Positions 1-16,327 of a stretch of DNA of 16,327 bases are shown here, one piece after another. Below the pieces are notes generated by a model. That model saw only the letters and a program-made list of their open reading frames with translations. It was not told the DNA's origin and searched no databases. The DNA is taken from UHGV virus genome UHGV-1634740; one strand, written 5' to 3'. The DNA comes from a virus. The translations under genes and the position numbers were made by a program. Within the stretch, counting starts at the first letter, position 1. Every line of letters begins with the position of its first letter.

Positions 1-499
1 TACGTCCCGGAAAAACAGCGCCATCCGTTTCAGTCGGCGTGGACAGTACAAAAGAGGCACTGACCGCGCTCAGTTCGCTGCACTGCTCAATGCGCCAGCG
101 GCTGATCACCTCCTGCTCCGGATCGGCGTAACTGTTTCCGTTGACGAAGTTCACCGCATCCAGAAAACGGGCGTAAACCTTACGCCGGACCACCGTTCCG
201 CCGACCAGACTCTGCATATCTTCCGCCATCCCGGTGACCATACCGTACAGGTTAGAAACCGTCAGCGTGGGGCGCGTACTGGTGCCTTTGCCATTCAGTT
301 CAAAACCGCTCCCCTGAATGGGATACGGCTGATACTGTCGCCCCTGCCAGGTGACCGGCTCACCTTTTTCGTTCTGCTCATTACAGAAAAAATAACGTTC
401 TCCACCGACCTCTGTCAGGTCGATTTCCCAGAGCACCACGCTGGCCGACTGCTCCGCACGGGTGCATTCATTCAGTGTTTCCTGCCGGATATCCTGCAT
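1..499 (-). CDS. L: minor tail protein L (N-terminal about 166 codons; 3' end lies beyond window start)
   Basis: My translation of the minus strand from ATG at 499-497 reads MQDIRQETLNECTRAEQSASVVLWEIDLTEVGGERYFFCNEQNEKGEPVTWQGRQYQPYPIQGSGFELNGKG..., matching lambda gpL from memory. Frame is open to the window edge. ATGA overlap with the M stop. Confidence 0.9.
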   Translation of the reverse strand, partial: MQDIRQETLNECTRAEQSASVVLWEIDLTEVGGERYFFCNEQNEKGEPVTWQGRQYQPYPIQGSGFELNGKGTSTRPTLTVSNLYGMVTGMAEDMQSLVGGTVVRRKVYARFLDAVNFVNGNSYADPEQEVISRWRIEQCSELSAVSASFVLSTPTETDGAVFPGR

Positions 500-828
500 C
501 AGTTCACCACCTGTTCAAACTCTGCGCTGAACTCAACACGCAACATACTGACCCGCGACGACCATTTTGCGCAGGTCACCTTTATCTGCCGCCACTCATA
601 AGGCGGCGTCCACAGAAAGGATTTCCAGCCCCCGTGCTCTTCCAGAAACGACTCCAGTACCGTGGCCTCCTCACGGGGGACAGAAAGCGTCACGCTGTAC
701 GTTTTCAGGTTGGCATTCAGCCCGGCAGGCGCTCGCTGAGAATAGCCATCACCAAAGCGCACCTTTCTTACAGAAGGGACCGAAGCCACATCCATACCGG
801 GTTTCACTTTCCAGCGGAAGGTCTTCAT
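499..828 (-). CDS. M: minor tail protein M, intact
   Basis: ORF track 109 aa MKTFRWKVKPGMDVASVPSVRKVRFGDGYSQRAPAGLNANLKTYSV... is full-length gpM. Start ATG 828-826 overlaps the reconstructed H stop. Confidence 0.93.
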   Translation of the reverse strand: MKTFRWKVKPGMDVASVPSVRKVRFGDGYSQRAPAGLNANLKTYSVTLSVPREEATVLESFLEEHGGWKSFLWTPPYEWRQIKVTCAKWSSRVSMLRVEFSAEFEQVVN

Positions 829-3380
829 CGTCCACCTCCGGAGAACAGGCCACCATCACGCATCTGTGTCTGAATTTCATCACGGGCACCTTGCGGGCCA
901 TGTCATACACCGCCTTCAGAGCAGCCGGACTATCTGCGTTCGTGCCGTCGTTGTTAATCACCACATGGTTATTCTGCTCAAACGTCCCGGACGCTGCGAC
1001 CGGCTGTCTGCCATGCTGCCCGGTGTACCGACATAACCGCCGGTGGCATAGCCGCGCATCAGCCGGTAAAGATTCCCCACGCCAATCCGGCTGGTTGCCT
1101 CCTTCGTGAAGACAAATTCACCACGGTGAACAATCCCCGCTGGCTCATATTTGCCGCCGGTTCCCGTAAATCCTCCGGTTGCAAAATGGAATTTCGCCGC
1201 AGCGGCCTGAATGCTGTACCGCCTGACGCGGATGCGCCGCCACCAACAGCCCCGCCAATGGCGCTGCCGATACTCCCGACAATCCCCACCATTGCCTGCT
1301 TAAGCAGAATTTCTGTCATCATGGACAGCACGGAACGGGTGAAGCTGCGCCAGTTCTGCTCACTGCCGGTCAGCATCGCCGCCATATTCTGTGCAATACC
1401 ATCAAAGGTCTGCGTGGCTGCACTTTTTACCTGCGACATACTGTCCGTGGCGCTCTCTTCCCACTCACTCCAGCCGGACTTCAGGCCTGCCATCCAGTTC
1501 CCGCGAAGCTGGTCTTCAGCCGCCCAGGTCTTTTTCTGCTCTGACATGACGTTATTCAGCGCCAGCGGATTATCGCCATACTGTTCCTTCAGGCGCTGTT
1601 CCGTGGCTTCCCGTTCTGCCTGCCGGTCAGTCAGCCCCCGGCTTTTCGCATCAATGGCGGCCCGTTTTGCCCGTTGCTGCTGTGCGAATTTATCCGCCTG
1701 CTGCGCCAGCGCGTTCAGGCGCTCCTGATACGTAACCTTGTCGCCAAGTGCAGCCAGCTGGCGTTTGTACTCCAGCGTCTCATCTTTATGCGCCAGCAGG
1801 GATTTCTCCTGTGCAGACAGCTGGCGACGTTGCGCCGCCTCCTCCAGTACCGCGAACTGACTCTCCGCCTTCCACAAATCCCGGCGCTGCTGGCTGATTT
1901 TCTCATTTGCTCCGGCATGCTTCTCCAGCGTCCGGAGTTCTGCCTGAAGCGTCAGCAGGGCAGCATGAGCACTGTCTTCCTGACGATCGCCCGCAGACAC
2001 CTTCACGCTGGACTGTTTCGGCTTTTTCAGCGTCGCTTCATAATCCTTTTTCGCCGCCGCCATCAGCGTGTTGTAATCCGCCTGCAGGATTTTCCCGTCT
2101 TTCAGTGCCTTGTTCAGTTCTTCCTGACGGGCGGTATATTTCTCCAGCGGCGTCTGCAGCCGTTCGTAAGCCTTCTGCGCCTCTTCGGTATATTTCAGCC
2201 GTGACGCTTCGGTATCGCTCTGCTGCTGCGCATTTTTGTCCTGTTGAGTCTGCTGCTCAGCCTTCTTTCGGGCGGCTTCAAGCGCAAGACGGGCCTTTTC
2301 ACGATCATCCCAGTAACGCGCCCGCGCTTCATCGTTAACAAAATAATCATCCTTGCGCAGATTCCAGATGTCGTCTGCTTTCTTAAACGCAGCCTCTGCC
2401 TTAATCAGCATCTCCTGCGCGGTATCAGGACGACCAATATCCAGCACCGCATCCCACATGGATTTGAATGCCCGCGCAGTCCTGTCTGCCCAGGTCTCCA
2501 GCGTGCCCATGTTCTCTTTCAGGCGGCGGGTCTGGTCATCAAACCCTTTCGTTGCGGCCTCGTTCGCCGCCTGCAATGCCCCGGCTTCATCGCCGGAACG
2601 CTGCAACTGAGCAACATACGCAATCTGCTCCGCCGACACGTTATGGAACTGGCGAGCCATCGCCGTCAGCCCCGACGTCGGGTCTGTGGTCAGCTTCCCG
2701 AAGGCTTCAGCGACCTTGTCCACCTCCACGCCGGATGCAGAGGAGAAACGCGCCACACTCTGGCTGATGGACGCAATCTGAGCCTCACCGCTTACCCCCG
2801 CCTTAACCAGTGCGCTGAGTGACTCGCTGGTCTGGTTAAACGTCAGCCCTGCCGCCTGCCCGGCTCTGGACAGGACCAGCATACGATCTGCCGTCAGTCC
2901 CGCCTGATTGCCGGAAAGGACCAGCGTTTTGTTGAAATCGGACAGGGTTGAGTTGCCCTGATACCAGGCATACGCCAGCGCACCGGTCGCCACCGCCAGC
3001 GAGGTGGCCCCGACCATCGGCAGGGTGATCGCACCGGCAAGCCCCCTGAACATGGGGATCATCCCGCCGAAGGAGTCCTTAACCTGACCACCCTGTTGCA
3101 GCAGGATCAGCCACGGACTTTGCCCGCCTGCAAGCTGCGTGGCCACGTCGGTGAACTGTGCAGGCAGCATACGCATGGCGGCTTTATACTGTCCGACGGA
3201 AATCCCCGCTTTCTGTGCAGCCAGCGCCTGCCGGTTCATTGACTGTTCAACGACTGCCGCTGTTTTTTTCGCATCACTTTCCGTACCGGAAAAATGACGC
3301 CTGACTCTGGCCATCTGCTCGTCAAATCTGGCCGCATCCAGACTTAAATCAACGACCAGATCGCCTACCGGTTCAGCCAT
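825..3380 (-). CDS. H: tail tape measure protein H; frame broken several times in the last ~350 nt as sequenced
   Basis: ORF 1059..3380 (773 aa) matches gpH over its length, including the coiled-coil Q/A/K/E-rich centre and the glycine-rich IGGAVGGGASASGGTA segment. The expected C-terminus continues in other frames: fragment 749..964 carries VINNDGTN...AALKAVYDMARK. Reconstructed stop TGA at 827-825 overlaps the M ATG. Span of 2556 nt versus about 2562 expected. Confidence 0.88.
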
Positions 3381-3783
3381 ACCTGACTCCTCCTGCGATC
3401 CCTTCTGATACTGTCATCAGCATTACGTCATCCTCCGTCATGTCCGCCACATCCGGGGAAGCGGGGATAACTTCATTCCCGTCCGGGCCAAAGCGGACAC
3501 CTCCGGCAAGCCCTGCCGCTTTCTGCATCAGCACATCATCTTCAGGCTCTTCGTCAGCCTCGCGCCGGTTCAGCAGACTGAAATCCAGCGGATGCATATC
3601 CGGATCGCTGAAAAACAGGCTGAGTACGGTGTACGTCAGCCCGGAAAAGTGCATATCCAGCAGAACATCATGAAAATAATGGGTACTGTAAAAGCGGTGC
3701 CAGTCGGCATACTCCGTGGATGACATCCCGGCAAGCATGGCGCGCCAGTCGGGTCGCCCCATCTCACGCGCAGTTTCAGGCAA
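3373..3783 (-). CDS. T: tail assembly chaperone T region (expressed in lambda as a G-T fusion by -1 frameshift); join to slippery site broken as sequenced
   Basis: ORF contains AREMGRPDWRAMLAGMSSTEYADWHRFYSTHYFHDVLLDMHFSG..., matching the gpT part of gpGT. Between the slippery site (3805-3811) and 3783 the T frame hits a stop; two single-base losses are inferred near 3771 and 3779. Confidence 0.8.
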   Translation of the reverse strand: MPETAREMGRPDWRAMLAGMSSTEYADWHRFYSTHYFHDVLLDMHFSGLTYTVLSLFFSDPDMHPLDFSLLNRREADEEPEDDVLMQKAAGLAGGVRFGPDGNEVIPASPDVADMTEDDVMLMTVSEGIAGGVRYG

Positions 3784-3786
3784 AAC

Positions 3787-4208
3787 TCAGCTCACCGTCG
3801 AACACTTTCCCGCAGAAACAGGCTCTGCTGGCCCGGCGTCATCTGCCTGTTCAGGTGCATCATTCACAACAAACTCAGACATACCGGACAGACGCATTAC
3901 CACATTTTCAGCCTGAGCAATTGCCTCTGTGGGCCAGGTGGTAAGCACTTCCTGCTCAATCTGTTTAACGGCTTCATTCATGGACGGCATCTGCGTCTTC
4001 TGCGGATGGTTATGCCACAGGGACATCGCCACCAGAAACGCGCCGGTTCTGATGGCGTCTTCCACAGTAAACTTCCGGTTGCTGTCTGACTCCGCCTGTT
4101 CTGCCTGCCGTTTCATCAGGGCGAGATGCTCAATGCGCTGCAGGCTGACAGTTCAGAAAGCGTGACGGTCACACCGTTATGTTCAAATGATTCGGTTTTC
4201 AGGAACAT
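3787..4208 (-). CDS. G: tail assembly chaperone G; one frame break near 4143 as sequenced
   Basis: ATG at 4208-4206 followed by MFLKTESFEHNGVTVTLSELS, then a frame change. ORF 3787..4116 continues MKRQAEQAESDSNRKFTVEDAIRTGAFLVAMSLWHNHPQKTQ...SAGKCSTVS. The break fits loss of one base in a G/C run at about 4143. Confidence 0.85.
3805..3811 (-). other. G-T programmed -1 ribosomal frameshift slippery heptamer GGGAAAG
   Basis: Plus strand has ctttccc at 3805-3811, which is GGGAAAG on the coding strand, positioned so that the zero frame gives ...SAGKCSTVS stop (end of G). Confidence 0.75.
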
Positions 4209-4223
4209 CGCTGACTCTCCGGA

Positions 4224-4951
4224 TTAACTGGCGGTGACGGTAATTTCTGCAACCGCAGCAAACTCACCATTACCGGATACAACCGGAATGTTGACCTTGC
4301 CTGCAGCAACGCCGTTCACGGTGATGGTCATACCACTGACCGACACGGTGGCTTTTGTTTTATCCGCAGACACCGCACGGAAGCTCTTGTCGGTTGCGCC
4401 TTCCGGCTGGAATGCCACGGTCAGCGTCGTGCTCTTCCCTTTCACCACCGAGGTGCTGGCAGGCGTCACGGTCATGCCGTTGCCGCTGTTACCGTGCTGC
4501 GATCTTCTGCCATCGACGGACGTCCCACATTGGTGACTTTCACCGTGCGGGTGATCACTTCCTTCGCCGTCACCGCCTTACCGATACTGCTGACCCAGCC
4601 GCGGAACACATCGATCGTGCCGTTCGGGAAGCGGATTTTATAGGCACGGGTATCACCTTCATTAAACCACGCCAGCAGCGCCTGCTGCCCCTGCTCTCCG
4701 GGCATCCACGCCAGCGTGAAGCTGGTATCTCCGGCAGATTTCTGCCCCTGTCCGGTCGCGGTCCAGTCCGCATCTTCATCATCGAGATAACTGTCGTCAT
4801 AGGACTCAGCGGTCAGTTCGCCGGGCGTCAGGTCTTTAACCTTTGCCAGACGCGACCAGTCATTGTCTGAAAGCGGGTTTGCATAAGGTCGCCGCTCCCG
4901 TTATAAACCACAGTGTGGTCCCGGCCCCTTTCACCGGTGCCAGAGGATTTG
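4224..4951 (-). CDS. V: major tail protein V; multiple frame breaks as sequenced
   Basis: ATG at 4951-4949 gives [18 protein letters not shown], then the frame is lost. Pieces 4472..4705 ([37 protein letters not shown]...) and 4224..4475 (C-terminal Ig-like part ...[16 protein letters not shown]) match gpV in order. Span of 728 nt versus about 741 expected. Confidence 0.87.
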
Positions 4952-4968
4952 GTGTTGGCATATCGTCC

Positions 4969-5364
4969 TCACATTTCATAGGTAATGACATAAGTCAGAT
5001 CGGCTGAACTCCACAGGCCCGCATCATCGTCGCGCCGGTAGTCATAGCCACTGGCCACCATACTGGTGATCAAATCTGACAGTGCCGGGATATCGCTCAT
5101 CACCGGATAAATCCGGGACTCCATCCACGCATCCAGCTCTGAATCCGGCACCTGAGCAGGCAGGAAAACTTCAATATGCAGCTCCGCCTGCCAGGTATCG
5201 CTGTCCAGCTCTTCGCCCGTGTATTCAGCGCCGGTGAGATAAACGGCAATTGCCGGAAAATCTTCCTCATCAAAAACAGCGGGGCGACCATCAAAAAGCG
5301 TCGCCCCGGTGTCATGCTTCTCCAGTGCATCCAGTACGGCTGCACGGAGTTCAGTATGTTTCAT
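4969..5364 (-). CDS. U: tail tube terminator protein U, intact
   Basis: 131 aa ORF MKHTELRAAVLDALEKHDTGATLFDGRPAVFDEEDFPAIAVYLTGAEYTGEELD... is full-length gpU. ATGA overlap with the Z stop. Confidence 0.93.
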   Translation of the reverse strand: MKHTELRAAVLDALEKHDTGATLFDGRPAVFDEEDFPAIAVYLTGAEYTGEELDSDTWQAELHIEVFLPAQVPDSELDAWMESRIYPVMSDIPALSDLITSMVASGYDYRRDDDAGLWSSADLTYVITYEM

Positions 5365-5938
5365 CGCTTTATTACCATCCTCAGTTGATGCTGCAGCGCA
5401 TAGCCCAGCTCTTTCGGAAGACGTTCACGCCGTATCCGCTCAATATTTTGTTTAAACGCCGTGGTCAGCGGCACCGCCATCGGGATTTTCACCACATCAA
5501 TGGGGTAACGGTTTTTCCCGGCCACACGCTGCATGACATGCCACCGGCCATTTTTCAGTTGCTGAATAAACGCGCCGGGAATACGACGGTTACCCACCAC
5601 AAGCACGCTGCCGCCACCTTTCAGGATGAACGCTGCCCCTTTTTACGACGCCTGCGGCGCGAAAGGACAACCCGCGCATTACCCAGCTTGATTACGGGCA
5701 AATCCCCCCGGTTAACTTTGATTCTGGCCTGCGGATTTTTGACCGTGGCCCTTTTCAGCCTGGCCCTTTCCTTTACCAGTTTCCGGCGTACCTTTGTCTC
5801 ACGGGCAACCTGTGACGCCGACTGCGATATCGCGGATGAAGCAACGCGGTTAATGGCCATTGCGGCGGCACCAGGCACCGCCGTTTTGCTGATACGGCTG
5901 AGGTTTTCAACGGCCTGCTCAAGACCTTTTATGGCCAT
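5361..5938 (-). CDS. Z: tail completion protein Z; one frame break near 5607-5640 as sequenced
   Basis: N-terminal piece 5621..5938 (MAIKGLEQAVENLSRISKTAVPGAAAMAINRVASS...) and C-terminal piece 5361..5606 (...LVVGNRRIPGAFIQQLKNGRWHVMQRVAGKNRYPIDVV...) are colinear with gpZ. Span of 578 nt versus 579 expected. Confidence 0.87.
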
Positions 5939-6301
5939 ACATCCCCCTTTCAGCGGCGACGGTTAACGCAGGCGGTACGCCCCGCCCAAGCCAGAGATGA
6001 CAGCTTCCGCCATCATCCGGCGAAATCCGGTCTATCCAGAAGTTTTCCTCACCGATGGTCAGCGTGTCGCCGCGCCGCAGCTGCCGCACCTCATCAGTCC
6101 GGACAAACAGGGACGGGCTGGAGCCTTCAACGCGCACGCCCTGTCCGGCATAGCTGATATTTTCAGGGTCATCAAAAACACCACGTATCACAGCACCGGA
6201 CTGCTCACCGGATGTCATGGTGGCTGACGTTCCCATGTACCGCGTATCGTTTCATCGGCGCAGGCAATGGCAGCATCGAACAGGTTATCGAAATCAGCCA
6301 C
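5935..6301 (-). CDS. FII: head-tail connector protein FII; frame breaks near both ends as sequenced (boundaries approximate)
   Basis: ORF 5919..6236 contains MGTSATMTSGEQSGAVIRGVFDDPENISYAGQGVRVEGSSPSLFVRTDEVRQLRRGDTLTIGEENFW. Upstream in another frame, GGAGG then GTG at 6301-6299 gives VADFDNLFDAAIA..., the expected FII N-terminus. Confidence 0.78.
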
Positions 6302-6312
6302 AGCGCCTCCCG

Positions 6313-6711
6313 TTATTGCATTCTGGCCAGGCCGCGCTCTGTCATTTCGGCTGCCACACCGGCAGAGACACGAAACGCCGTTCCCGGCAGCACAAATGCC
6401 ACAGGTTCATCCCGCGTGGCGTGAAGTGCATCAGTATGCAGCTTCACCAGTGCCACGACCGTGACCAGTTCAGACGTATCCAGAATCACGGTATCCGGCT
6501 GCGCTGATCCCACCTCATTTTCATGTCCGGTCAGCACATTTTCCCGGCTGAGAGGGGTGTCCTGACCGGCAGTTTCATCCGTGTCATCAAGCTCCTCTTC
6601 CAGCTCTGCCACACGGAGCGCCAGTTCTTCTTTCGTCCCCGTCAGGCTGACATCACGGTTCAGTTGTTCACCCAGCGAGCGGAGACGGGCAATCAGTTCA
6701 TCTTTCGTCAT
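6313..6711 (-). CDS. FI: DNA packaging protein FI, intact
   Basis: Start at the internal Met of track ORF 6313..6750: MTKDELIARLRSLGEQLNRDVSLTGTKEELALRVAELEEELDDTDETAGQDTPLSRENVLTGHENE... is full-length gpFI. Confidence 0.9.
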   Translation of the reverse strand: MTKDELIARLRSLGEQLNRDVSLTGTKEELALRVAELEEELDDTDETAGQDTPLSRENVLTGHENEVGSAQPDTVILDTSELVTVVALVKLHTDALHATRDEPVAFVLPGTAFRVSAGVAAEMTERGLARMQ

Positions 6712-6752
6712 GGACTCCTCCACAGAGAAACAATGGCCCCGAAGGGCCATGA

Positions 6753-7778
6753 TTACGCCAGTTGTACGGACACGAACTCATCAGGGTCAGCCAGCAGCAT
6801 CAGCGGTGCTGACTGAATCATGGTGAACTCACGCGCCGGATCGCCGGTGGTCACCCAGTTTTTCGGGTAACGGGCAGAGGCGTTAATGCCTTCGCGCTGT
6901 GCGTCCGCATCCTGAATGCAGCCATAGGTGCGCAGACCGCGTGCCTGAGTGTTCCCCAGCACCATCGTGTTGTCCGGCAGGAAGTTCTTTTTGACGCCGT
7001 TTTCCACGTACTGTCCGGAATACACGACGATGGCCACATCGCCATACATCCCCTTATAGGACACCGCTTTACCCAGGTCTTTCACCGCTGTCTCCAGCTC
7101 GGAATTAGAGCCACGACGGGTATCCAGCTTCTCCTTGACGGCTTTGAAGGAACGGAACAGCGCCCAGCCTTTCGGATCGAACACGATGATATTCACCACA
7201 CCGCTGGCGTTCAGCGCGTAGGCTTCGATATCGTCGGTCGGGTCATACGTGGACTTGTCACGCTTGCTCCACTCCGTGCCGCCGGACTGCGTGATGTTAT
7301 TCGCCGCACTGCGGCCCATATCCACCTCAACCGGATCGAAGGCTTCACCGGTCATGGTGTATTTGCCCTTAAGCACGGCAGAAACTGCCTGCATCTCTTC
7401 GACCTGAGCAATAGCCAGCTCTTCGTCACGCATGTTCTGCATGATGATGCGACGGCGGCGGTAAGCCGGGTCCGCCAGATTCTGCGGATCTTCATCCGGC
7501 AGGCGACGCAGGGTCATCTGCGGATTCACTTCATGCTTCGGCTTGACATATCCCGGCGTAAATTCAGAGGTGGAGCCGCCACGGGAACGGATAACCTCAC
7601 CGGAAACAATCGGCGAAACGTACAGCGCCATGTTTACCAGTCCCGGAATTTGTGAGAGATAGACTTTTTCCGTGGTGAAAGGATAGGTTTCACGGAAAAA
7701 CAGGCGCAGAAACAGCGGATCGAACTTAAAGTGATGCTGGGTCGATGCCAGTAATTCTGCAGTTGTATATACAGACAT
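6753..7778 (-). CDS. E: major capsid protein E, intact
   Basis: 341 aa ORF matches gpE end to end. Only the N-terminus shows substitutions relative to my memory of lambda (MSVYTTAELLASTQHHFKFDPLFLRLFFRE...). Confidence 0.95.
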   Translation of the reverse strand: MSVYTTAELLASTQHHFKFDPLFLRLFFRETYPFTTEKVYLSQIPGLVNMALYVSPIVSGEVIRSRGGSTSEFTPGYVKPKHEVNPQMTLRRLPDEDPQNLADPAYRRRRIIMQNMRDEELAIAQVEEMQAVSAVLKGKYTMTGEAFDPVEVDMGRSAANNITQSGGTEWSKRDKSTYDPTDDIEAYALNASGVVNIIVFDPKGWALFRSFKAVKEKLDTRRGSNSELETAVKDLGKAVSYKGMYGDVAIVVYSGQYVENGVKKNFLPDNTMVLGNTQARGLRTYGCIQDADAQREGINASARYPKNWVTTGDPAREFTMIQSAPLMLLADPDEFVSVQLA

Positions 7779-7791
7779 AAATTATTTCCAT

Positions 7792-7813
7792 AAAAAAAAG
7801 CCGCACAGGCGGC
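7792..7813 (-). terminator. D-E intergenic GC hairpin followed by an 8-nt U run (intrinsic terminator or attenuator-like)
   Basis: Minus strand reads GCCGC-CUGU-GCGGC then UUUUUUUU (plus strand aaaaaaaa at 7792-7799, stem 7800-7813). It sits between the D stop (7837-7835) and the E start (7778). Confidence 0.4.
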
Positions 7814-7834
7814 CTTTGTTGATGAAGGGGAAGA

Positions 7835-8165
7835 TTAAACGATGCTGATTGCCGTTCCGGCAACGCGGTCCGTTTTTAGTCTCGTCGCTGGCAGCCTCCG
7901 GCCAGAGCACATCCTCATAACGGAACGAGCCGGACTTGTAGAACGTCAGTGTGGTGCTGGTCTGGTCAGCAGCAACCGCCAGAATGCCAACGGCTGCACC
8001 GTCGGTGGTGCCATCCCACACAACCAGCTTACGGGTAGTGCCATCCAGCATCAGCGGGGTCATTGCAGGCGTTTTCGCACTCAATCCGCCAGGCGCAATT
8101 GCTGTATGAGCCGGATCACTGTTACCCAGCGGCTGGTAATGGTTAAACTCTTCTTTTGTCGCCAT
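7835..8165 (-). CDS. D: head decoration protein D; frame break near the 3' end as sequenced
   Basis: ORF 7782..8165 begins [79 protein letters not shown]..., matching gpD. After ...EAASDETK the frame departs and reads through. The expected ending AISIV-stop is present in another frame (gcaatcagcatcgtttaa, stop at 7837-7835). Confidence 0.87.
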
Positions 8166-8174
8166 AACTGCCTC

Positions 8175-9484
8175 TTATACCGGTAAAGCTTCAGGTGTAT
8201 TAAGTAATTCTTTATTGGTATCAGATGCCAGGTTACCTGCAGCCAGCGGTGCCGGTGCACCCTGCATCAGACGATCCAGCGCAGTGTCACTGCGCGCCTG
8301 TGCACTCTGTGGTGCTGCAGCCAGAATGCGGCGGGCCGTTTTCACGGTCATACCGGGGGTTTCTGCCAGCACGCGTGCCTGTTCTTCGCGTCCGTGAGCC
8401 TCCTCACAGTTGAGGATCCCCATAATGCGGCTGTTTTCTGCCGCAACCGCTGCGGTGATCTGCGCGTTCACGTCCGGCTGCGCCGCGCTGGCGTTTTCGC
8501 CCTCCGTCGCTGGCACCACGTCAGTAACGTCAGCCTGCGAAGCAGTGGCTGAAACAGTTGTTGATTGAGTCTCTTTGGTCATTCGCCCTCCTGAGAGACG
8601 GGATTTACGCGCATCCAGTGCATCACGCATGACGGTGATCGCATCGGTGCTGTTAACAAGTTCATCAGCCAGTCCGGCATCAATGGCCTCCTGACCGCTG
8701 TACACTGCAGCCTCGGTATCCAGCACAGCCTGCACAGACAGGCCGGTATATGCCGACACCTTCTGCGCAAACATCTGGCGGGTTGCGTCCATCCGGGACT
8801 GCAGTGTCTCCCGGACGTCATCCGGAAGATGGCTGTAGGGATTGCCATCCACCTTATGGCTGCCGCTGTAAATCAGCGTGATTTCCACACCCTGTTTCTC
8901 CAGGGCAGCACCGTAATTACTGTGAGCCATCATGACGCCGATGGAGCCTGTCCGGGCGGTCTGCGTGACCAGACGCCGGGAGGCGGCACTGGCAAGCAAC
9001 TGACCTGCACTGCAGTTCATGTCGTTGGCCAGCGCCCATACCGGTTTTATGTCACGCACACGGGCGATGATGTCAGCGCAGTCAAATGCCCCCGCCACCA
9101 TCCGCCGGGCGTGTCCATATCGAGCAGAATGCCGTCCACCATCGGATCGCTGGCAGCCTGTTGCAGACGGGCGATAATGCCGTTGTAACCGGTCATCCCC
9201 GAGTACGGCTGCAGCGCCCGCGTCCGGCTGACCAGCGTGCCGGACACCGGCAGCACGGCGATGCCGTTCATGACCTGATAACTGCGGGCCTGTCGTGTCC
9301 GTCATCATCACCGGATAATGCCAGCGTCGCGAGTGCCTCCTGGGCAGTCAGGCTGTCGCCGGACACCGCATCCGTCAGGCGGCTGATCCCAAGCTGGCCT
9401 GCAAGCGCACAAAAGAAAACCCGCGCATAGGCGGGTTCAAGCATCAGCGGCTCATTAAAGGCCATGCTGGCAATATGCGGGAGA

Positions 9485-9504
<20 letters not shown>
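8175..9504 (-). CDS. C: capsid assembly protease/scaffold C with nested in-frame Nu3 scaffold region; multiple frame breaks as sequenced
   Basis: Pieces are colinear with gpC: 9268..9618 (...TAELRNLPHIASMAFNEPLMLEPAYARVFFCALAGQLGIS...), 9047..9271 (MNGIAVLPVSGTLVSRTRALQPYSGMTGYNGIIARLQQAASDPMVDGILLDMDTPGG) and 8175..9311 from MVAGAFDCADIIARVRDIKPVWALANDMNCSAGQLL... to the C-terminus. The 20-nt overlap with the B 3' end matches lambda. Apparent start codon is GTG at 9504-9502. Confidence 0.85.
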
Positions 9505-13178
<3,674 letters not shown>

Positions 13179-13204
<26 letters not shown>

Positions 13205-13722
13205 TCAGCAACCCCGGTATCAGTTCATCCAGCGCGGCTGCTTTGTTCATGGCTTTGATGATATCCCGTTTCAGGAAATCAACATGTCGGTTTTCCAGTT
13301 CCGGAACGCCGCTGCACCGACAGGGGGATCCCGTCGAGAATACTGGCAATTTCACCTGCGATCCGCGACAACACGAAAGTACAGAATGCGGTTTCCACCA
13401 CTTCAGCGGAGTCTCTGGCATTCTTCAGTTCCTGTGCGTCGGCCTGCGCACGCGTAAGTCGATGGCGTTCGTACTCAATAGTTCCTGGCTGGAGATCTGC
13501 CTCGCTGGCCTGCCGCAGTTCTTCAACCTCCCGGCGCAGCTTTTCGTTCTCAATTTCAGCATCCCTTTCGGCATACCATTTTATGACGGCGGCAGAATCA
13601 TAAAGCACCTCATTACCCTTCCCACCACCCCGCAGAACGGGCATTCCCTGCTCCTGCCAGTTCTGAATGGTACGGATACTCGCACCGAAAATGTCAGCCA
13701 GCTGCTTTTTGTTGACTTCCAT
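13179..13722 (-). CDS. nu1: terminase small subunit Nu1; one frame break near 13300-13320 as sequenced
   Basis: ORF 13279..13722 reads MEVNKKQLADIFGASIRTIQNWQEQGMPVLRGGGKGNEVLYDSAAVIKWYAERDAEIENEKLRREVEELRQ... (HTH and ATPase N-terminus of Nu1). The C-terminus ...FPELENRHVDFLKRDIIKAMNKAAALDELIPGLLSEYIEQSG is in ORF 13179..13421. The 26-nt overlap with A matches lambda. Confidence 0.88.
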
Positions 13723-13898
13723 TGTTCATTCCACGGCCAAAAACAGAGAAAGGAAACGACAAAGGCCCAAAAGCCCGTTTTCAGCACCTGTCGTTTCCTT
13801 TCTTTTCAGGGGGTATTTTAAATAAAACATTAAGTTACGACGAAGAAGAACGGAAACGCCTTAAACCGGAAAATTTTCATAAATAGCGAAAACCCGAG
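13723..13898. other. cosB region (terminase small-subunit and IHF binding segment between cosN and Nu1)
   Basis: Reverse complement of 13730-13910 reads gggcggcgacctctcgggttttcgctatttatgaaaattttccggtttaaggcgtttccgttcttcttcgtcgtaacttaatgtttt...gaaaggaaacgacaggtgctgaaa...tgtcgtttcctttctctg, close to the lambda left end as I recall it, with a few substitutions. Confidence 0.75.
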
Positions 13899-13910
13899 AG
13901 GTCGCCGCCC
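13899..13910. other. cosN, 12-nt cohesive-end sequence GGGCGGCGACCT (minus-strand reading)
   Basis: Plus strand aggtcgccgccc at 13899-13910 is the exact reverse complement of the lambda cohesive end. Flanked on the other side by cgtaacctgtcgg, which is the lambda right-end ...CCGACAGGTTACG. Confidence 0.85.
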
Positions 13911-14109
13911 CGTAACCTGTCGGATCGCCGGAAAGGACCCGCAAAATGATAATAATTATCATCTGCATGTCACAACGTGCATCTACGCCATCAAACCACG
14001 TCAAATAATCAATTATGACGCAGGTATCGTATTAATTGATCTGCATCAACTTAACGTAAAAACAACTTCAGACAATACAAATCAGTGACACTGAATACAG
14101 GGCAACCTC

Positions 14110-14343
14110 ATGTCAACGAAGAACAGAACCCGCAGAACAACAACCCGCAACATCCGCTTTCCTAACCAAATGATTGAACAAATTAACATCGCTCTTGATC
14201 AAAAAGGGTCCGGGAATTTCTCAGCCTGGGTCATTGAAGCCTGCCGCCGAAGACTGTGCTCAGAAAAAAGAGTTTCGCCTGAAGCAAACAAAGAAAAGAG
14301 TGACATTACTGAATTGCTCAGAAAGCAGGTCAGACCAGATTGA
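14110..14343 (+). CDS. small basic protein, possibly a ribbon-helix-helix-like DNA-binding protein (tentatively YlcI/YnfO, DUF3950-like prophage protein)
   Basis: 77 aa ORF in an AT-rich segment on the strand opposite the phage late genes. Basic N-terminus (KNRTRRTTTRNIRF) followed by ...QINIALDQKGSGNFSAWVIEACRRRL, resembling Arc/CopG-type motifs. Family assignment is from memory and not verified. Confidence 0.5.
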   Translation: MSTKNRTRRTTTRNIRFPNQMIEQINIALDQKGSGNFSAWVIEACRRRLCSEKRVSPEANKEKSDITELLRKQVRPD

Positions 14344-14371
14344 AGCAATTTAGATAATCGTGCAGACTAGG

Positions 14372-14397
14372 TACCTTCATATCACATGGAAGGTACT
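14372..14397 (+). promoter_or_regulatory. stem-loop overlapping the ribosome binding site of the downstream ORF
   Basis: gtaccttc (14371-14378), 10-nt loop, gaaggtac (14389-14396): a perfect 8-bp inverted repeat. The right arm contains the GGAAGG Shine-Dalgarno-like motif 7 nt upstream of ATG 14401; the first ATG (14386) lies in the loop. Confidence 0.4.
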
Positions 14398-14400
14398 ACA

Positions 14401-14811
14401 ATGGCTCAGGTTGCCATTTTTAAACAAATATTCGATAAAGTGCGAAATAATTTAAACTATCACTGGTTTTATTCTGAACTAAAACGTCACAATGTCTCAC
14501 ATTACATTTACTATTTAGCCACAGAGAATATTCATCTTGTTCTTGAAAACGATAATACGGTTTTAATAAAAGGACAGAGTAAGGTTGTAAATGTAAGATT
14601 TTCAAAAAATAAATGCCTTATAGAAGCCACCTTAAAAGGATTCAAATCAGGAGAGTTATCATTTTACGAATACAGGAAAAATCTTGCTACAGCAGGGGTT
14701 TTCAGATGGATTACAAATATCCACGAAAACAAAAGGTATTACTATACCTTTGATAATTCATTACTCTTTACTGAGAACATTCAGAACACCACACAAATAT
14801 TTCCGCACTAA
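14401..14811 (+). CDS. hypothetical prophage accessory protein (tentatively DUF1398/YbcV-like); start 14386 or 14401
   Basis: Strongly AT-rich ORF with no overlap with phage structural genes: [59 protein letters not shown].... Its position between the lysis cassette and cos is typical for lambdoid accessory genes. Confidence 0.5.
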
Positions 14812-14856
14812 ATCATAACGTCCGGTTTCTTCCGTGCCAGAACCGGACTCGCTGGC

Positions 14857-15051
14857 ATGATGAAATATGTGTACCCGGTAACCCCGGTGTGCATCGTTTT
14901 TGATTATTCCCGCACACTCGCGCAGAAGGAGTTCCCCGTCGGGCTACGGTCTCTGTTAATACGGGAATACGGCGACGATACAGCGCATGATGTGTCAGGC
15001 TTGAATACCTTTATCCTTCAAAAGGGATATCAGTTAAGTTATCCCGTGTAG
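14857..15051 (+). CDS. hypothetical small protein (weak call)
   Basis: 64-codon ORF immediately followed by a plus-strand terminator hairpin. No recognisable motif. Confidence 0.3.
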   Translation: MMKYVYPVTPVCIVFDYSRTLAQKEFPVGLRSLLIREYGDDTAHDVSGLNTFILQKGYQLSYPV

Positions 15052-15066
15052 GGTATAAGCATTATC

Positions 15067-15093
15067 AAAGCCACTCTGTAGGAAGTGGCTTTT
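15067..15093 (+). terminator. intrinsic terminator-like hairpin ending the plus-strand accessory gene unit
   Basis: aaagccact (15067-15075), 8-nt loop, agtggcttt (15084-15092): a perfect 9-bp stem whose 3' arm ends in a UUU(U) run. Confidence 0.5.
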
Positions 15094-15103
15094 GTAATGG
15101 CAA

Positions 15104-15127
15104 TAAAAAGCCCCGCGAATGCGAGGC
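15104..15127 (-). terminator. intrinsic terminator-like hairpin on the minus strand, about 175 nt downstream of Rz
   Basis: Minus strand reads GCCUCGC-AUUC-GCGGGGC (7-bp stem with one G-U pair) followed by UUUUUAUU (plus strand 15105-15109 aaaaa). Convergent with the plus-strand terminator 10-15 nt away. Confidence 0.5.
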
Positions 15128-15301
15128 TAAATCCTGGTATTTGTAATGACTGGCTCTTATCTCAACGCAGCCCCTTACCGCGCGCAAAATGCTCAATATC
15201 AAGCATCAGCAATGAGATGTTTAATCTGGATTCACTCCAGAAGTGAGCACCACCCTGTCTACAGAGCCAGATGTGAAGGATGATGAGTAAAATTATCGCT
15301 A

Positions 15302-15768
15302 TCATCGAAGGCATTGCGTCCTGATGTATTCCTGAAGCGTTCTCAATGCTGTTTGGTCGCGGATAATTCCGTCCCGGATACCGAGAACGTTTCGTCCAGC
15401 AACTGGAGAGAGTTCGACGGTGGCATCATTGCCCATGCCGGAGGCGCTGGAGGTTTCGGCTGAGGATGGCACAGGCATTTTCCTTTGACGAGCACCCGAC
15501 CACCATTATCAAGCTTGCGCCGAAGAGCATCATTTTCAGCTTTCGCATCAGCTAACTCCTTCGTGTATTTATCATCGAGTGCATCAGCATCACGCTGGCG
15601 CTGCTGCATGTCAGTAATGGTGGCGTTCGCCTTCTCCAGTTCACTGGCCTTGTTATCGCGCTGTTCTTTGTAGGCGATTGCATTATCACGGTAATGATTA
15701 ACAGCCCATGACAGGCAGACGATGATGCAGATAACCAGAGCGGAGATAATCGCGGTTACTCTGCTCAT
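15302..15768 (-). CDS. Rz: i-spanin Rz; single frame break near 15480-15500 as sequenced
   Basis: N-terminus [83 protein letters not shown] has the Rz transmembrane anchor and coiled coil. After the break the Rz-like C-terminus (...[50 protein letters not shown] stop) continues in another frame and ends at 15302. Confidence 0.8.
15343..15547 (-). CDS. Rz1: o-spanin Rz1 embedded in Rz (+1 frame); broken by the same indel as Rz
   Basis: Embedded frame gives [22 protein letters not shown]... (signal peptide plus lipobox VVGC). The proline-rich part ...[18 protein letters not shown]...SATKQH stop is found in the frame that track ORF 15343..15768 ends in. Confidence 0.65.
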
Positions 15769-16239
15769 ACCTCAATCTCTCTGACCGTTCCGCCAGCTTC
15801 TTTGAATTTTGCAATCAGACTGTCAGCCTTATGCTCGAACTGACCATAACCAGCGCCCGGCAGTGAAGCCATATATTGCTGCAACGGTCGATAGCCTGAC
15901 GGATATCACCGCGATCAATCATCGGCAAAGCGCCACGCTCTTTAATCTGCTGCAGCGCTACAGCATCCTGACTTCTGGAGAAAAATCTTTCAGGCCAAGT
16001 TGCTTGCGGTAGGCATCCCACCAGCGTGAAAGAAGCTGGTAACGTCCAGCGGCTGTTGATTTGAGTTTCGGATTTAGCGTGACAAGTTTGCGGGGGTGAT
16101 CGGAGTAATCAGTGAACAGTTCGCCACCGACAATAACATCATAACCGTGATTTCTGGTTTTCTGCCGTCCGTTATCTGTTCCTTCTGACCATGCCACCAT
16201 ATCAAGGAAAGCTTTACGCTGGGAATTAAGTGTCTGCAT
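15765..16239 (-). CDS. R: endolysin R (lambda R-type transglycosylase); at least two frame breaks as sequenced
   Basis: ORF 15958..16239 reads [91 protein letters not shown] 15815..16021 continues ...[35 protein letters not shown]. Reconstructed stop overlaps the Rz ATG (ATGA at 15768-15765). Confidence 0.88.
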
Positions 16240-16242
16240 TAA

Positions 16243-16327
16243 TTACTCCTTATGGGCACCGAACTTGTTACCGATGACCCTCATTGCCGCACCACGAATA
16301 GCATCAACACCAATCAGCCACCCACCA
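16243..16327 (-). CDS. 3' end of a probable holin gene (S-like); 5' part lies beyond window end
   Basis: Open frame to the window edge ending ...GGWLIGVDAIRGAAMRVIGNKFGAHKE stop (TAA 16245-16243), immediately upstream of the R start, with AAGGAG as the R ribosome binding site. Only weak resemblance to the lambda S C-terminus; called from position. Confidence 0.45.
   Translation of the reverse strand, partial: GGWLIGVDAIRGAAMRVIGNKFGAHKE

What the first reader, a model, noticed from the sequence alone, without database searches (positions are those of the whole stretch)
13930..15140. AT-rich accessory island between cos and the lysis cassette, without bor
The segment between the lysis genes and cos is on the opposite strand to all phage late genes and is clearly more AT-rich than the flanks. 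It carries three small ORFs (a basic putative ribbon-helix-helix-like protein, an approximately 137-aa hypothetical and a 64-codon ORF), and its boundary with the lysis cassette is marked by convergent terminators. I find no bor-like lipoprotein ORF where lambda would have one. This is the part of the window most likely to hold cargo of unknown function, though the ORFs resemble known prophage accessory families (tentatively YlcI/YnfO-like and DUF1398/YbcV-like) rather than anything clearly new.
Basis: partly seen in the sequence, partly recalled or inferred. Interest (0 to 1): 0.45.

Follow-up and report, generated by a model that had tools for sequence, protein, structure and literature searches.

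The report
Lambda-type prophage accessory genes ynfO and ydfO
This AT-rich stretch between the phage DNA-packaging site and the lysis genes is the well-known, dispensable accessory region of lambda-like prophages (a YnfO gene and a YdfO/YbcV-family gene of unknown function), present almost unchanged in about a fifth of complete E. coli genomes, so it is ordinary.

Summary
Window 13930-15140 is 40% G+C against 57% for the late genes. It lies on the strand opposite the late operon, starts just past cosN (13899-13910) and ends at two face-to-face terminator hairpins. No bor homologue exists in any frame.

ORF1 (14110-14343) is YnfO: 97% identical to E. coli K-12 YnfO and a clear Pfam DUF3950 and NCBIfam YlcI/YnfO match. 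ORF2 (true start 14401, 136 aa) is a DUF1398 protein, 76-78% identical to YdfO, YbcV and the lambda homologue, with the fold of PDB 2HH8. ORF3 (14857-15051) is not a gene: all 77 related loci have a stop at codon 55 or earlier, and lambda/DLP12 carry frame-breaking indels.

The locus is 99.5% identical to prophages in many E. coli genomes; 1001 of 5426 complete genomes carry at least 80% of it. It is the Qin-type allele of lambda's right-end accessory region. Bor is missing because a different Rz-end/50-aa-ORF/terminator module sits in its place.

The two genes look like independent units. DUF1398 genes occur without DUF3950 elsewhere and share a conserved upstream block: a PdhR-box-like palindrome, weak promoter-like hexamers and a hairpin over the ribosome-binding site. 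A ribbon-helix-helix fold for YnfO is plausible but unproven. Biochemical function remains unknown. Already known; low interest.

The parts
13899..13910 (-). cosN cohesive-end sequence GGGCGGCGACCT; marks the packaging site that bounds the region on the left
   Evidence: Single exact match, 0 expected by chance. The surrounding DNA averages 96% column identity with lambda, Qin and DLP12.
13930..14109 (+). Non-coding stretch upstream of ynfO. It is nearly invariant between the window, lambda, Qin and DLP12, and contains an inverted repeat ATCAATTATGACG / CGTATTAATTGAT at 14008-14040. Candidate ynfO promoter/operator (inferred).
   Evidence: Four-way alignment: invariant from about 13990 to the ATG except for two window-specific changes. 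Inverted repeat I1. ATCAATTA occurs only at these two places in the window. No consensus sigma-70 promoter was found on the + strand here.
14110..14343 (+). ynfO: 77-aa YlcI/YnfO family protein (DUF3950). It has a basic N-terminal arm, a conserved core to about residue 50 and a variable tail.
   Evidence: Pfam PF13132 E 5e-21; NCBIfam NF041551 E 7e-9. 97% identical to K-12 YnfO and 94.5% to YlcI/lambda over residues 1-55. The exact sequence is on at least 1000 contigs. Variants among 80 loci: 12 synonymous, 6 non-synonymous, 13 of 18 at third codon positions. AlphaFold model has helices at 19-32 and 37-53.
14328..14336 (+). GGTCAGACC palindrome (PdhR-box-like) inside the last codons of ynfO and directly upstream of the DUF1398 promoter-like hexamers
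   Evidence: Conserved, with single-base variants in some paralogues, within a conserved block upstream of the compared DUF1398 paralogues. A gSELEX PdhR site is reported at the homologous K-12 position between ynfO and ydfO and upstream of ybcV; ybcV mRNA is 10-fold lower in a pdhR mutant (PMC7660256).
14339..14367 (+). Putative weak promoter of the DUF1398 gene: -35-like TTGAAG (14339-14344), 17-nt spacer, -10-like CAGACT (14362-14367). Inferred, not mapped.
   Evidence: Conserved block ACCAGATTGAA ... TGCAnACTA (one or two changes in single paralogues) in loci whose proteins are only 44-100% identical. Below the threshold of the promoter scan.
14370..14398 (+). Leader hairpin GGTACCTTC/GAAGGTACT that pairs the ribosome-binding site GAAGG of the DUF1398 gene
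   Evidence: 9-bp stem in the minimum-energy fold; dG -13.4 kcal/mol. Inverted repeat I5. Paralogues keep an anti-SD (CCCTC/CCTC) opposite GAAGG/GAGG, with weaker pairing.
14401..14811 (+). DUF1398 gene (136 aa), of the ydfO/ybcV family, homologous to lambda's 'putative envelope protein'
14812..15066 (+). Non-coding 3' region of the DUF1398 unit. It contains the spurious ORF3 (14857-15051) and the decayed homologue of the promoter that phage HK629 annotates upstream of bor (about 14947-14973).
   Evidence: ORF3 has no Pfam, NCBIfam, PHROG or PADLOC hit. RefSeq does not annotate it in a 99.5% identical genome. All 77 related loci have a stop at or before codon 55, some have further stops, and lambda/DLP12 have 1-bp indels. 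Variants 8 synonymous, 9 non-synonymous, 2 stop. HK629 promoter TGGACA-15-TACAAT aligns to CGGTCT-15-TACGGC here. 14812-14987 is homologous to lambda; 14988 onwards is not.
15067..15098 (+). Intrinsic terminator of the + strand (accessory) unit: stem AAAGCCACU.../...AGUGGCUUU then UUUUGUAAU
   Evidence: dG -18.1 kcal/mol, z -4.15 against shuffles. Similarity to 40 of 77 related loci and to phage PhiR49_1 ends at about 15101, just after it.
15101..15128 (-). Intrinsic terminator of the - strand (end of the lysis module): AGCCTCGC-ATTC-GCGGGGCT then TTTTTATT
   Evidence: Terminator scan hit, 8 pairs with 6 G-C; fold dG -15.2. It travels with the 50-aa ORF and the Rz end in HK620, mEp460 and other phages.
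15162..15314 (-). 50-aa hydrophobic ORF on the late strand, occupying the place where lambda has bor. It belongs to the lysis module, not to the accessory unit.
   Evidence: PHROG 11822 E 1.8e-36 over 50 of 50 residues, function unknown. RefSeq hypothetical protein WP_001139678.1. Cluster of 187 sequences. 14988-15520 has no similarity to lambda.

Best explanation
This is the Qin-type allele of the standard accessory region found between the lysis cassette and cos in lambda-family prophages. It holds two real genes, read against the late operon.

(1) ynfO encodes a small basic protein whose conserved 50-residue core probably forms a ribbon-helix-helix-like DNA-binding dimer. It most likely regulates its own nearly invariant upstream region, which carries a 13-nt inverted repeat.

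(2) The DUF1398 gene (ydfO/ybcV family, homologous to lambda's 'putative envelope protein') behaves as an autonomous unit. It has a weak promoter abutting a PdhR-box-like palindrome, a leader hairpin that masks its ribosome-binding site, about 250 nt of non-coding tail and an intrinsic terminator.

The lambda DUF1398 homologue (p78) is not needed for lytic growth; dispensability of ynfO is assumed from its position, not shown. Both are carried as lysogen-expressed cargo under host control, and they alter host stress physiology through a protein of an orphan fold that more likely binds a partner than catalyses a reaction. Bor is absent because this phage lineage carries a different lysis-module end (another Rz/Rz1 C-terminal half, a 50-aa ORF and a terminator) in the slot where lambda has the Rz end plus bor.

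Shown: gene identities, the orphan fold, purifying selection, mosaic boundaries, terminators, absence of bor, and ORF3 not coding. Inferred: the ribbon-helix-helix fold and autoregulation, promoter positions, PdhR control in this allele, translational masking, and the physiological role. The confidence given (0.8) is for the identity and anatomy; the mechanistic part alone is perhaps 0.4.
For: Identity: Pfam and NCBIfam hits above curated cut-offs. 97% identity to YnfO and 76-78% to YdfO, YbcV and the lambda homologue. The same gene order and sizes as Qin nohA-ynfO-ydfO. 99.5% DNA identity to annotated E. coli prophages, with 1001 of 5426 genomes holding at least 80% of 13700-15400.

Real genes: synonymous changes outnumber non-synonymous ones and concentrate at third codon positions in both genes.

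Independent units: DUF1398 lies without any DUF3950 gene within 6 kb in 31 enterobacterial loci, with unrelated neighbours. In lambda and DLP12 an opposite-strand gene (ybcW) separates the two. A conserved promoter-like block and PdhR-like palindrome lie upstream of all compared paralogues.

Host control and expression: PdhR gSELEX sites and a 10-fold drop of ybcV mRNA in a pdhR mutant (PMC7660256). ydfO is induced up to 116-fold by an ionic liquid, and YdfO overexpression is reported to raise oxidative-stress resistance (PMC4077768).

Dispensable: lambda p78 scores non-essential by CRISPRi (PMC10695390).

Mosaic and bor: 14988-15520 is unrelated to lambda. Breakpoints fall between the two terminators. 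None of 80 YnfO-type viral loci has Bor within 4 kb.
Against: No biochemical function is known for either family, so the physiological role rests on overexpression and expression studies of K-12 paralogues, not of this allele.

The proposed promoter hexamers are weak (about 7 of 12 matches) and below the scan threshold. No transcription start data were available. The leader hairpin is strong only in this allele and is much weaker in lambda and Qin.
Confidence: 0.8

Rival explanations
1. YnfO and the DUF1398 protein form a toxin-antitoxin-like or abortive-infection pair. A ribbon-helix-helix antitoxin with a partner-specific C-terminal tail is followed 57 bp downstream by its toxin or effector.
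Confidence: 0.07
2. The region is kept for cis-acting DNA rather than for its proteins. In this view the conserved sequence next to cosN and cosQ serves packaging termination, and the ORFs merely ride along.
For: The 180 bp between cos and ynfO are nearly invariant among lambda, Qin, DLP12 and the window. They are more conserved than the DUF1398 coding sequence, which is 82% identical to lambda.
Against: Both ORFs show a coding pattern of substitution. The protein families are conserved far from any cos site, for example ycgX-type and Kluyvera loci. From my own knowledge, the known cosQ element lies within about 30 bp of cosN, not 100-200 bp away.
Confidence: 0.08
3. The genes are decaying remnants with no present function, carried passively in defective prophages.
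For: In the window the flanking late genes (terminase, portal, Nu1, Rz, R) are broken into fragments. Homologues sit in the cryptic prophages Qin and DLP12.
Against: The breaks are about 30 one-base deletions in homopolymer runs relative to a 98% identical intact prophage. That pattern points to sequencing error, and none lies in 13824-15058. The same module is present in isolated phages such as Kati, PhiR70_1 and PhiR49_1. Both ORFs are intact and under purifying selection across 64-80 loci.
Confidence: 0.05
4. ORF3 (14857-15051) encodes a real small protein, making a three-gene island.
For: An open 64-codon frame with an ATG start exists in the window. A 54-codon version is open in most relatives and has been called 'hypothetical protein' by some pipelines.
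Against: The 64-aa form is unique to this contig. Different alleles carry stops at codons 9, 33 or 55. Lambda and DLP12 have frame-breaking indels and DLP12 has no start codon. Substitutions are spread over codon positions 8/3/8, with 9 non-synonymous and 2 stop against 8 synonymous. No family matches in four libraries. RefSeq does not annotate it.
Confidence: 0.03

Closest known systems
E. coli K-12 Qin cryptic prophage segment nohA-ynfO-ydfO
   Same: Same gene order, orientation and gene lengths (234 and 411 nt). YnfO is 97% identical and the DNA is 90% identical over 13600-14849. The GGTCAGACC palindrome lies at the same position at the end of ynfO.
   Different: The DUF1398 protein is only 76% identical to YdfO. 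Downstream, Qin has gnsB, ynfN and cspI, whereas the window has about 250 nt of non-coding DNA and a terminator, then a different lysis-module end. Similarity to Qin stops at 14849.
Phage lambda right end (Rz, bor, DUF1398 'putative envelope protein', ybcW homologue, ylcI homologue, cos) and K-12 DLP12 (borD-ybcV-ybcW-ylcI-nohD)
   Same: Same position between the lysis genes and cos, on the same strand opposite the late operon, with the same two protein families. DNA is 95% identical from Nu1 through ylcI codon 55 and 82% identical across the DUF1398 gene plus 175 nt downstream.
   Different: Lambda and DLP12 have an extra late-strand gene (the ybcW homologue) between the two genes, a 64-aa YlcI with a different tail, and bor downstream with its own promoter. 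The window lacks ybcW and bor, and the homologue of the promoter upstream of bor is degenerate. The Rz C-terminal half differs.
YdfO solution structure, PDB 2HH8
Ribbon-helix-helix antitoxins and repressors (RelB, ParD, DinJ, CopG, Arc)
   Different: No significant sequence, profile or structure score links YnfO to them. Dimerisation and DNA binding are untested.

Membership tests
YlcI/YnfO family (Pfam DUF3950, NCBIfam NF041551) | Match to the family profile above the curated cut-off | tested here: met
   PF13132 at 74.6 bits (cut-off 25) and NF041551 at 35.7 bits (cut-off 30). 97% identical to K-12 YnfO over 77 of 77 residues.
DUF1398 (Pfam PF07166; YdfO/YbcV/YcgX) | Full-length match to the family profile above the curated cut-off | tested here: met
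   146 bits (cut-off 22), profile positions 1-119 of 119. 76-78% identical to YdfO, YbcV and the lambda homologue.
DUF1398 (Pfam PF07166; YdfO/YbcV/YcgX) | YdfO fold (PDB 2HH8) | tested here: met
Bor lipoprotein (lambda Bor / BorD) | An ORF homologous to Bor anywhere in the window | tested here: not met
   tblastn of lambda Bor and BorD gave a best E of 3.4, with no hit in this region. No Bor family hit for seven local ORFs. The DNA where lambda has bor (14988-15520) is unrelated to lambda.
Ribbon-helix-helix (CopG/Arc/MetJ) DNA-binding proteins | Strand-helix-helix core recognisable by sequence profile or structure comparison | tested here: inconclusive
Ribbon-helix-helix (CopG/Arc/MetJ) DNA-binding proteins | Dimer with a two-stranded antiparallel sheet that binds repeated operator half-sites | not testable with these tools
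   Only monomer prediction was available. A candidate operator (the inverted repeat at 14008-14040) was found but binding cannot be tested.
Type II toxin-antitoxin pair | The two genes are consistently linked and co-transcribed | tested here: not met
   DUF1398 lies without DUF3950 in 31 loci. ybcW intervenes on the other strand in lambda and DLP12. A separate conserved promoter-like block precedes DUF1398.
Type II toxin-antitoxin pair | Toxicity of the downstream protein, neutralised by the upstream one | not testable with these tools
   The only indirect evidence is literature: YdfO overexpression is reported to be protective (PMC4077768).
Phage 'moron' (independent accessory transcription unit in a late region) | Composition unlike the neighbours, and its own terminator | tested here: met
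   31-45% G+C against 55-58% in the late genes. The + strand terminator is at 15067-15098. The module boundary coincides with it.
Phage 'moron' (independent accessory transcription unit in a late region) | Its own promoter, active in the lysogen | tested here: inconclusive
   Only weak promoter-like hexamers were found, though they are conserved across paralogues. Expression evidence comes from K-12 paralogues in the literature.

The most novel reading that the evidence does not exclude
YnfO and the DUF1398 protein together form an unrecognised prophage-borne toxin-antitoxin-like or anti-phage module: a ribbon-helix-helix antitoxin/repressor plus an orphan-fold effector. The stand-alone DUF1398 paralogues would then be orphaned or domesticated effectors switched on through a shared PdhR-controlled promoter.
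Probability: 0.06. Interest if true: 0.5.

Novelty: already known. Interest (0 to 1): 0.1.

Why it matters
It matters little as a discovery. The module sits in lambda itself, in two K-12 cryptic prophages and in roughly a fifth of complete E. coli genomes. Both protein families are catalogued and one has a solved structure.

The residual value is that two very widespread lysogen-carried genes still have no known biochemical function. The conserved PdhR-like box, weak promoter and masked ribosome-binding site upstream of every DUF1398 paralogue compared give a concrete, testable handle on when they are expressed.

Tried and rejected
- Foldseek of the YnfO model against the PDB gave no match.
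- A profile search of PDB sequences with the YnfO alignment gave no match at E up to 10.
- Pfam at E up to 10 on the YnfO core returned only DUF3950.
- PADLOC defence models gave nothing for any ORF.
- Rfam at E up to 1 over 13600-15500 gave only two chance-level hits. I therefore rejected the idea of a known small RNA in the 3' non-coding region.
- I considered a short transcript from the homologue of the promoter upstream of bor running to the + strand terminator. I rejected it because both hexamers are degenerate here.
- The AFDB50 fold library was not available.
- The Casjens and Hendrix lambda review was not held under the PMC id I tried, which was recalled from memory.
- The single-sequence search of 1.84 billion representatives found only 188 relatives, many of them fragments or error-laden lambda control DNA. 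Many 'genome' hits in unrelated taxa are lambda contamination on 3.5-kb or 48-kb contigs.
- Neighbours of stand-alone DUF1398 genes (cold-shock domain, MASE4, SopE, SMR transporter, hydrolases) showed no recurrent partner.
- The viral-contig scan for distant DUF3950 relatives returned only 97-100% identical copies. It could not test whether DUF3950 occurs without DUF1398.
Full report
**Context**

The window is a lambda-like prophage with its late genes on the - strand. Positions 1-15768 align at 98% identity with an intact, annotated prophage of E. coli CFSAN061771, running from tail genes through portal, terminase and Nu1/nohD to Rz.

The lambda cohesive-end sequence GGGCGGCGACCT occurs once, at 13899-13910 on the - strand. 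The finding therefore covers the DNA between cos and the lysis cassette.

The exact 64-aa ORF3 product is on record for a single 16,327-bp ENA contig, which is evidently this window.

**Checking the observation**

- **Composition.** 13930-15140 is 40.0% G+C, against 56.9% for 1-13722 and 49.7% for 15141-16327. The DUF1398 gene is the AT-rich core (31.4% G+C, GC3 31%). ynfO is 45%.
- **ORFs.** Three + strand ORFs are present, at 14110-14343, 14386/14401-14811 and 14857-15051.
- **Terminators.** A - strand terminator (15128-15109 plus a T run) and a + strand hairpin (core 15067-15092, then UUUUGUAAU; dG -18.1, z -4.15) face each other.
- **bor.** tblastn with lambda Bor and K-12 BorD finds nothing in any frame (best E 3.4, elsewhere in the window).

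The description is accurate.

**What the ORFs are**

ORF1 is YnfO.
- Pfam DUF3950 matches at E 5e-21 and NCBIfam YlcI/YnfO is above its cut-off.
- It is 97% identical to K-12 YnfO over all 77 residues, and 94.5% identical to YlcI and its lambda counterpart over residues 1-55.
- The exact sequence is seen on at least 1000 contigs.

ORF2 is a DUF1398 protein.
- Pfam matches at E 6.5e-43 over the full profile.
- It is 76-78% identical to YdfO, YbcV and lambda's 'putative envelope protein'.
- Its likely start is the ATG at 14401, which is preceded by GAAGG and is the start RefSeq uses.

ORF3 has no match in Pfam, NCBIfam, PHROGs or PADLOC, and RefSeq does not annotate it in a 99.5% identical genome.

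**ORF3 is not a gene**

- In all 77 related viral loci the frame has a stop at codon 55 or earlier. The window alone has CAA at codon 55, through the single mismatch at 15019.
- Other alleles carry extra in-frame stops at about codon 9 or 33.
- The homologous DNA of lambda and DLP12 has 1-bp indels, and DLP12 has no start codon.
- Site variants are 8 synonymous, 9 non-synonymous and 2 stop, spread 8/3/8 over codon positions. By contrast ynfO shows 12/6/0 and DUF1398 shows 10/5/0, both concentrated at third positions.

The 14812-15066 stretch is thus a non-coding tail of the DUF1398 unit. Part of it (to 14987) is homologous to the lambda spacer between the DUF1398 gene and bor. The promoter that phage HK629 annotates upstream of bor (TGGACA-15-TACAAT) aligns here to CGGTCT-15-TACGGC, which is a decayed version.

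**Comparison across lambdoid phages**

- The segment 13700-15400 is 99.5% identical to prophages in many E. coli genomes. 4844 of 5426 complete genomes have some match, and 1001 have at least 80% of it in one place.
- It is 98% identical to the isolated phage Kati.
- The layout (Nu1/noh, cos, ynfO of 234 nt, DUF1398 of 411 nt) is that of K-12 Qin (nohA-ynfO-ydfO), with 90% DNA identity to 14849.
- Against lambda, 13600-14272 is 95% identical, 14323-14987 is 82% identical, 14988-15520 is unrelated, and 15521-15800 (the Rz N-terminal half) is 89% identical.
- Lambda and DLP12 additionally carry a late-strand ybcW homologue between the two genes, and bor downstream.
- The unrelated block 14988-15520 holds the + and - strand terminators, a 50-aa hydrophobic ORF on the late strand (PHROG 11822; RefSeq hypothetical) and a different Rz/Rz1 C-terminal half.
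- The - strand terminator and the 50-aa ORF travel with the Rz end in other phages, including HK620 and mEp460.
- 40 of 77 YnfO-type loci, and phage PhiR49_1, lose similarity at about 15101/15102, exactly between the two terminators.
- None of 80 YnfO-type viral loci has Bor within 4 kb.

Absence of bor is therefore the norm for this allele. It reflects a module swap, not a deletion peculiar to this window.

**One island or two units?**

- DUF3950 genes were found next to DUF1398 only in lambda- and Qin-type loci.
- 31 more divergent DUF1398 loci have no DUF3950 within 6 kb. These include the E. coli ycgX type, Citrobacter, Kluyvera, Pseudocitrobacter and Salmonella diarizonae. Their neighbours are unrelated to one another.
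- An alignment of the 100 nt upstream of eight DUF1398 genes, whose proteins are 44-100% identical, shows a conserved block: GGTC(A/T)GA(C/T)CAGATTGAA, then 17 nt, then CA(N)ACT.
- In the window this block comprises the palindrome GGTCAGACC (14328-14336), a -35-like TTGAAG (14339-14344) and a -10-like CAGACT (14362-14367).
- The palindrome is the site reported as a PdhR gSELEX target between ynfO and ydfO and upstream of ybcV. ybcV mRNA fell 10-fold in a pdhR mutant (PMC7660256).
- Its centre lies about 42 nt upstream of the inferred start, which would suit an activator. This last point is my inference.
- The leader then forms a 9-bp hairpin (14370-14398) that pairs the GAAGG ribosome-binding site. 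Paralogues keep an anti-SD/SD pair with weaker stems.
- The last codons of ynfO are read out of this promoter region, and YnfO/YlcI tails beyond about residue 52 differ between alleles. This explains the variable tail without invoking partner specificity.

**Structures**

The YnfO model (pLDDT 66.6) has an extended basic arm, then helices 19-32 and 37-53 joined by a GSGN turn, then a poorly defined tail. Evidence on a ribbon-helix-helix fold is mixed:
- Foldseek, a PDB profile search and Pfam find no ribbon-helix-helix link.
- hhalign against Arc (sequence from memory) aligns the expected register at only 2% probability.
- A weak PHROG HicB-like hit exists.

I rate a ribbon-helix-helix fold as plausible but unproven.

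A 13-nt inverted repeat (14008-14040) lies in the nearly invariant stretch upstream of ynfO and is a candidate operator.

**Function**

Literature on close paralogues gives the following:
- Lambda p78 is non-essential in CRISPRi knock-down (PMC10695390).
- ydfO is strongly but transiently induced by an ionic liquid.
- YdfO overexpression is said to raise oxidative-stress resistance (PMC4077768).
- ydfO is among four Qin genes changed on DicC induction (PMC11430063).

No paper found assigns a biochemical activity.

My best account is lysogen-expressed cargo under host metabolic control. YnfO would be a small autoregulatory DNA-binding protein, and the DUF1398 protein a binding-type effector. 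The identity part of this account is near certain; the mechanistic part is perhaps 40% likely.

**Rivals**

- **Toxin-antitoxin or defence pair.** This is not excluded, but the genes are independent in other loci, DUF1398 has its own promoter block, and there are no PADLOC hits.
- **Pure cis-acting packaging role.** This conflicts with the coding pattern of substitution.
- **Decay.** The fragmented late genes differ from the intact relative by about 30 one-base deletions in homopolymer runs, none of them within 13824-15058. That points to sequencing error.

**Verdict**

The feature is already known and ordinary. Interest is low.

Noticed in passing
window 1-16327, e.g. 3771, 4142, 10827, 12343, 12708, 13304, 15473: Relative to a 98% identical intact E. 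coli prophage, the window has about 30 one-base (one two-base) deletions in homopolymer runs. These break terminase, portal, Nu1, Rz and other late genes into fragments. The one-directional homopolymer pattern suggests sequencing or assembly error rather than real pseudogenes.
   Followed up: partly
window 14328-14398; loci L003, L005, L006, L039, L040, L045, L051: All DUF1398 paralogues compared share a conserved upstream block: a PdhR-box-like palindrome, -35-like TTGAA and -10-like CAnACT, followed by an anti-SD/SD pair. This holds even when the proteins are only 44% identical.
   Followed up: partly
window 15162-15314 (- strand): A 50-aa hydrophobic ORF overlaps the end of Rz (PHROG 11822, RefSeq hypothetical). 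It sits where lambda has bor but on the late strand, and it travels with the Rz end and the - strand terminator in HK620, mEp460 and other phages. Its function is unknown; it may be a lysis accessory.
   Followed up: partly
window 14341-14400; proteins P0014, P0013: ynfO and the DUF1398 gene are in the same reading frame. In Qin only one TGA separates them, and database ORF calls exist that read through it as W (233-aa 'fusion'). The window has a second stop (TAG). I did not determine whether the fusions are real alleles or products of alternative-code gene calling.
   Followed up: no
window 15768-16327: Similarity to the CFSAN061771 prophage ends at the Rz start. By my recollection of the lambda R sequence, the window's endolysin is lambda R-like, whereas the relative has an rrrD-type lysozyme. 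This would be another mosaic joint. The R frame is also split in the window.
   Followed up: no
window 880-1030: A short patch in the tail-gene region, about 150 nt, has clustered mismatches and many small indels relative to the otherwise 98% identical prophage. It looks like a divergent mosaic patch.
   Followed up: no
loci L016-L036, L047-L050 (genome-contig scan): Many 'genomes' of unrelated taxa (Pseudomonas, Brevibacillus, Flavobacterium, Kitasatospora and others) contain lambda's right end on 3.5-kb or roughly 48-kb contigs. This is almost certainly lambda control-DNA contamination of assemblies.
   Followed up: no
window 13861-14004 (- strand): A 47-aa ORF spanning cosN matches PHROG 11159 (E 9e-12). 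It probably reflects repeated spurious ORF calls across cos in phage annotations.
   Followed up: no
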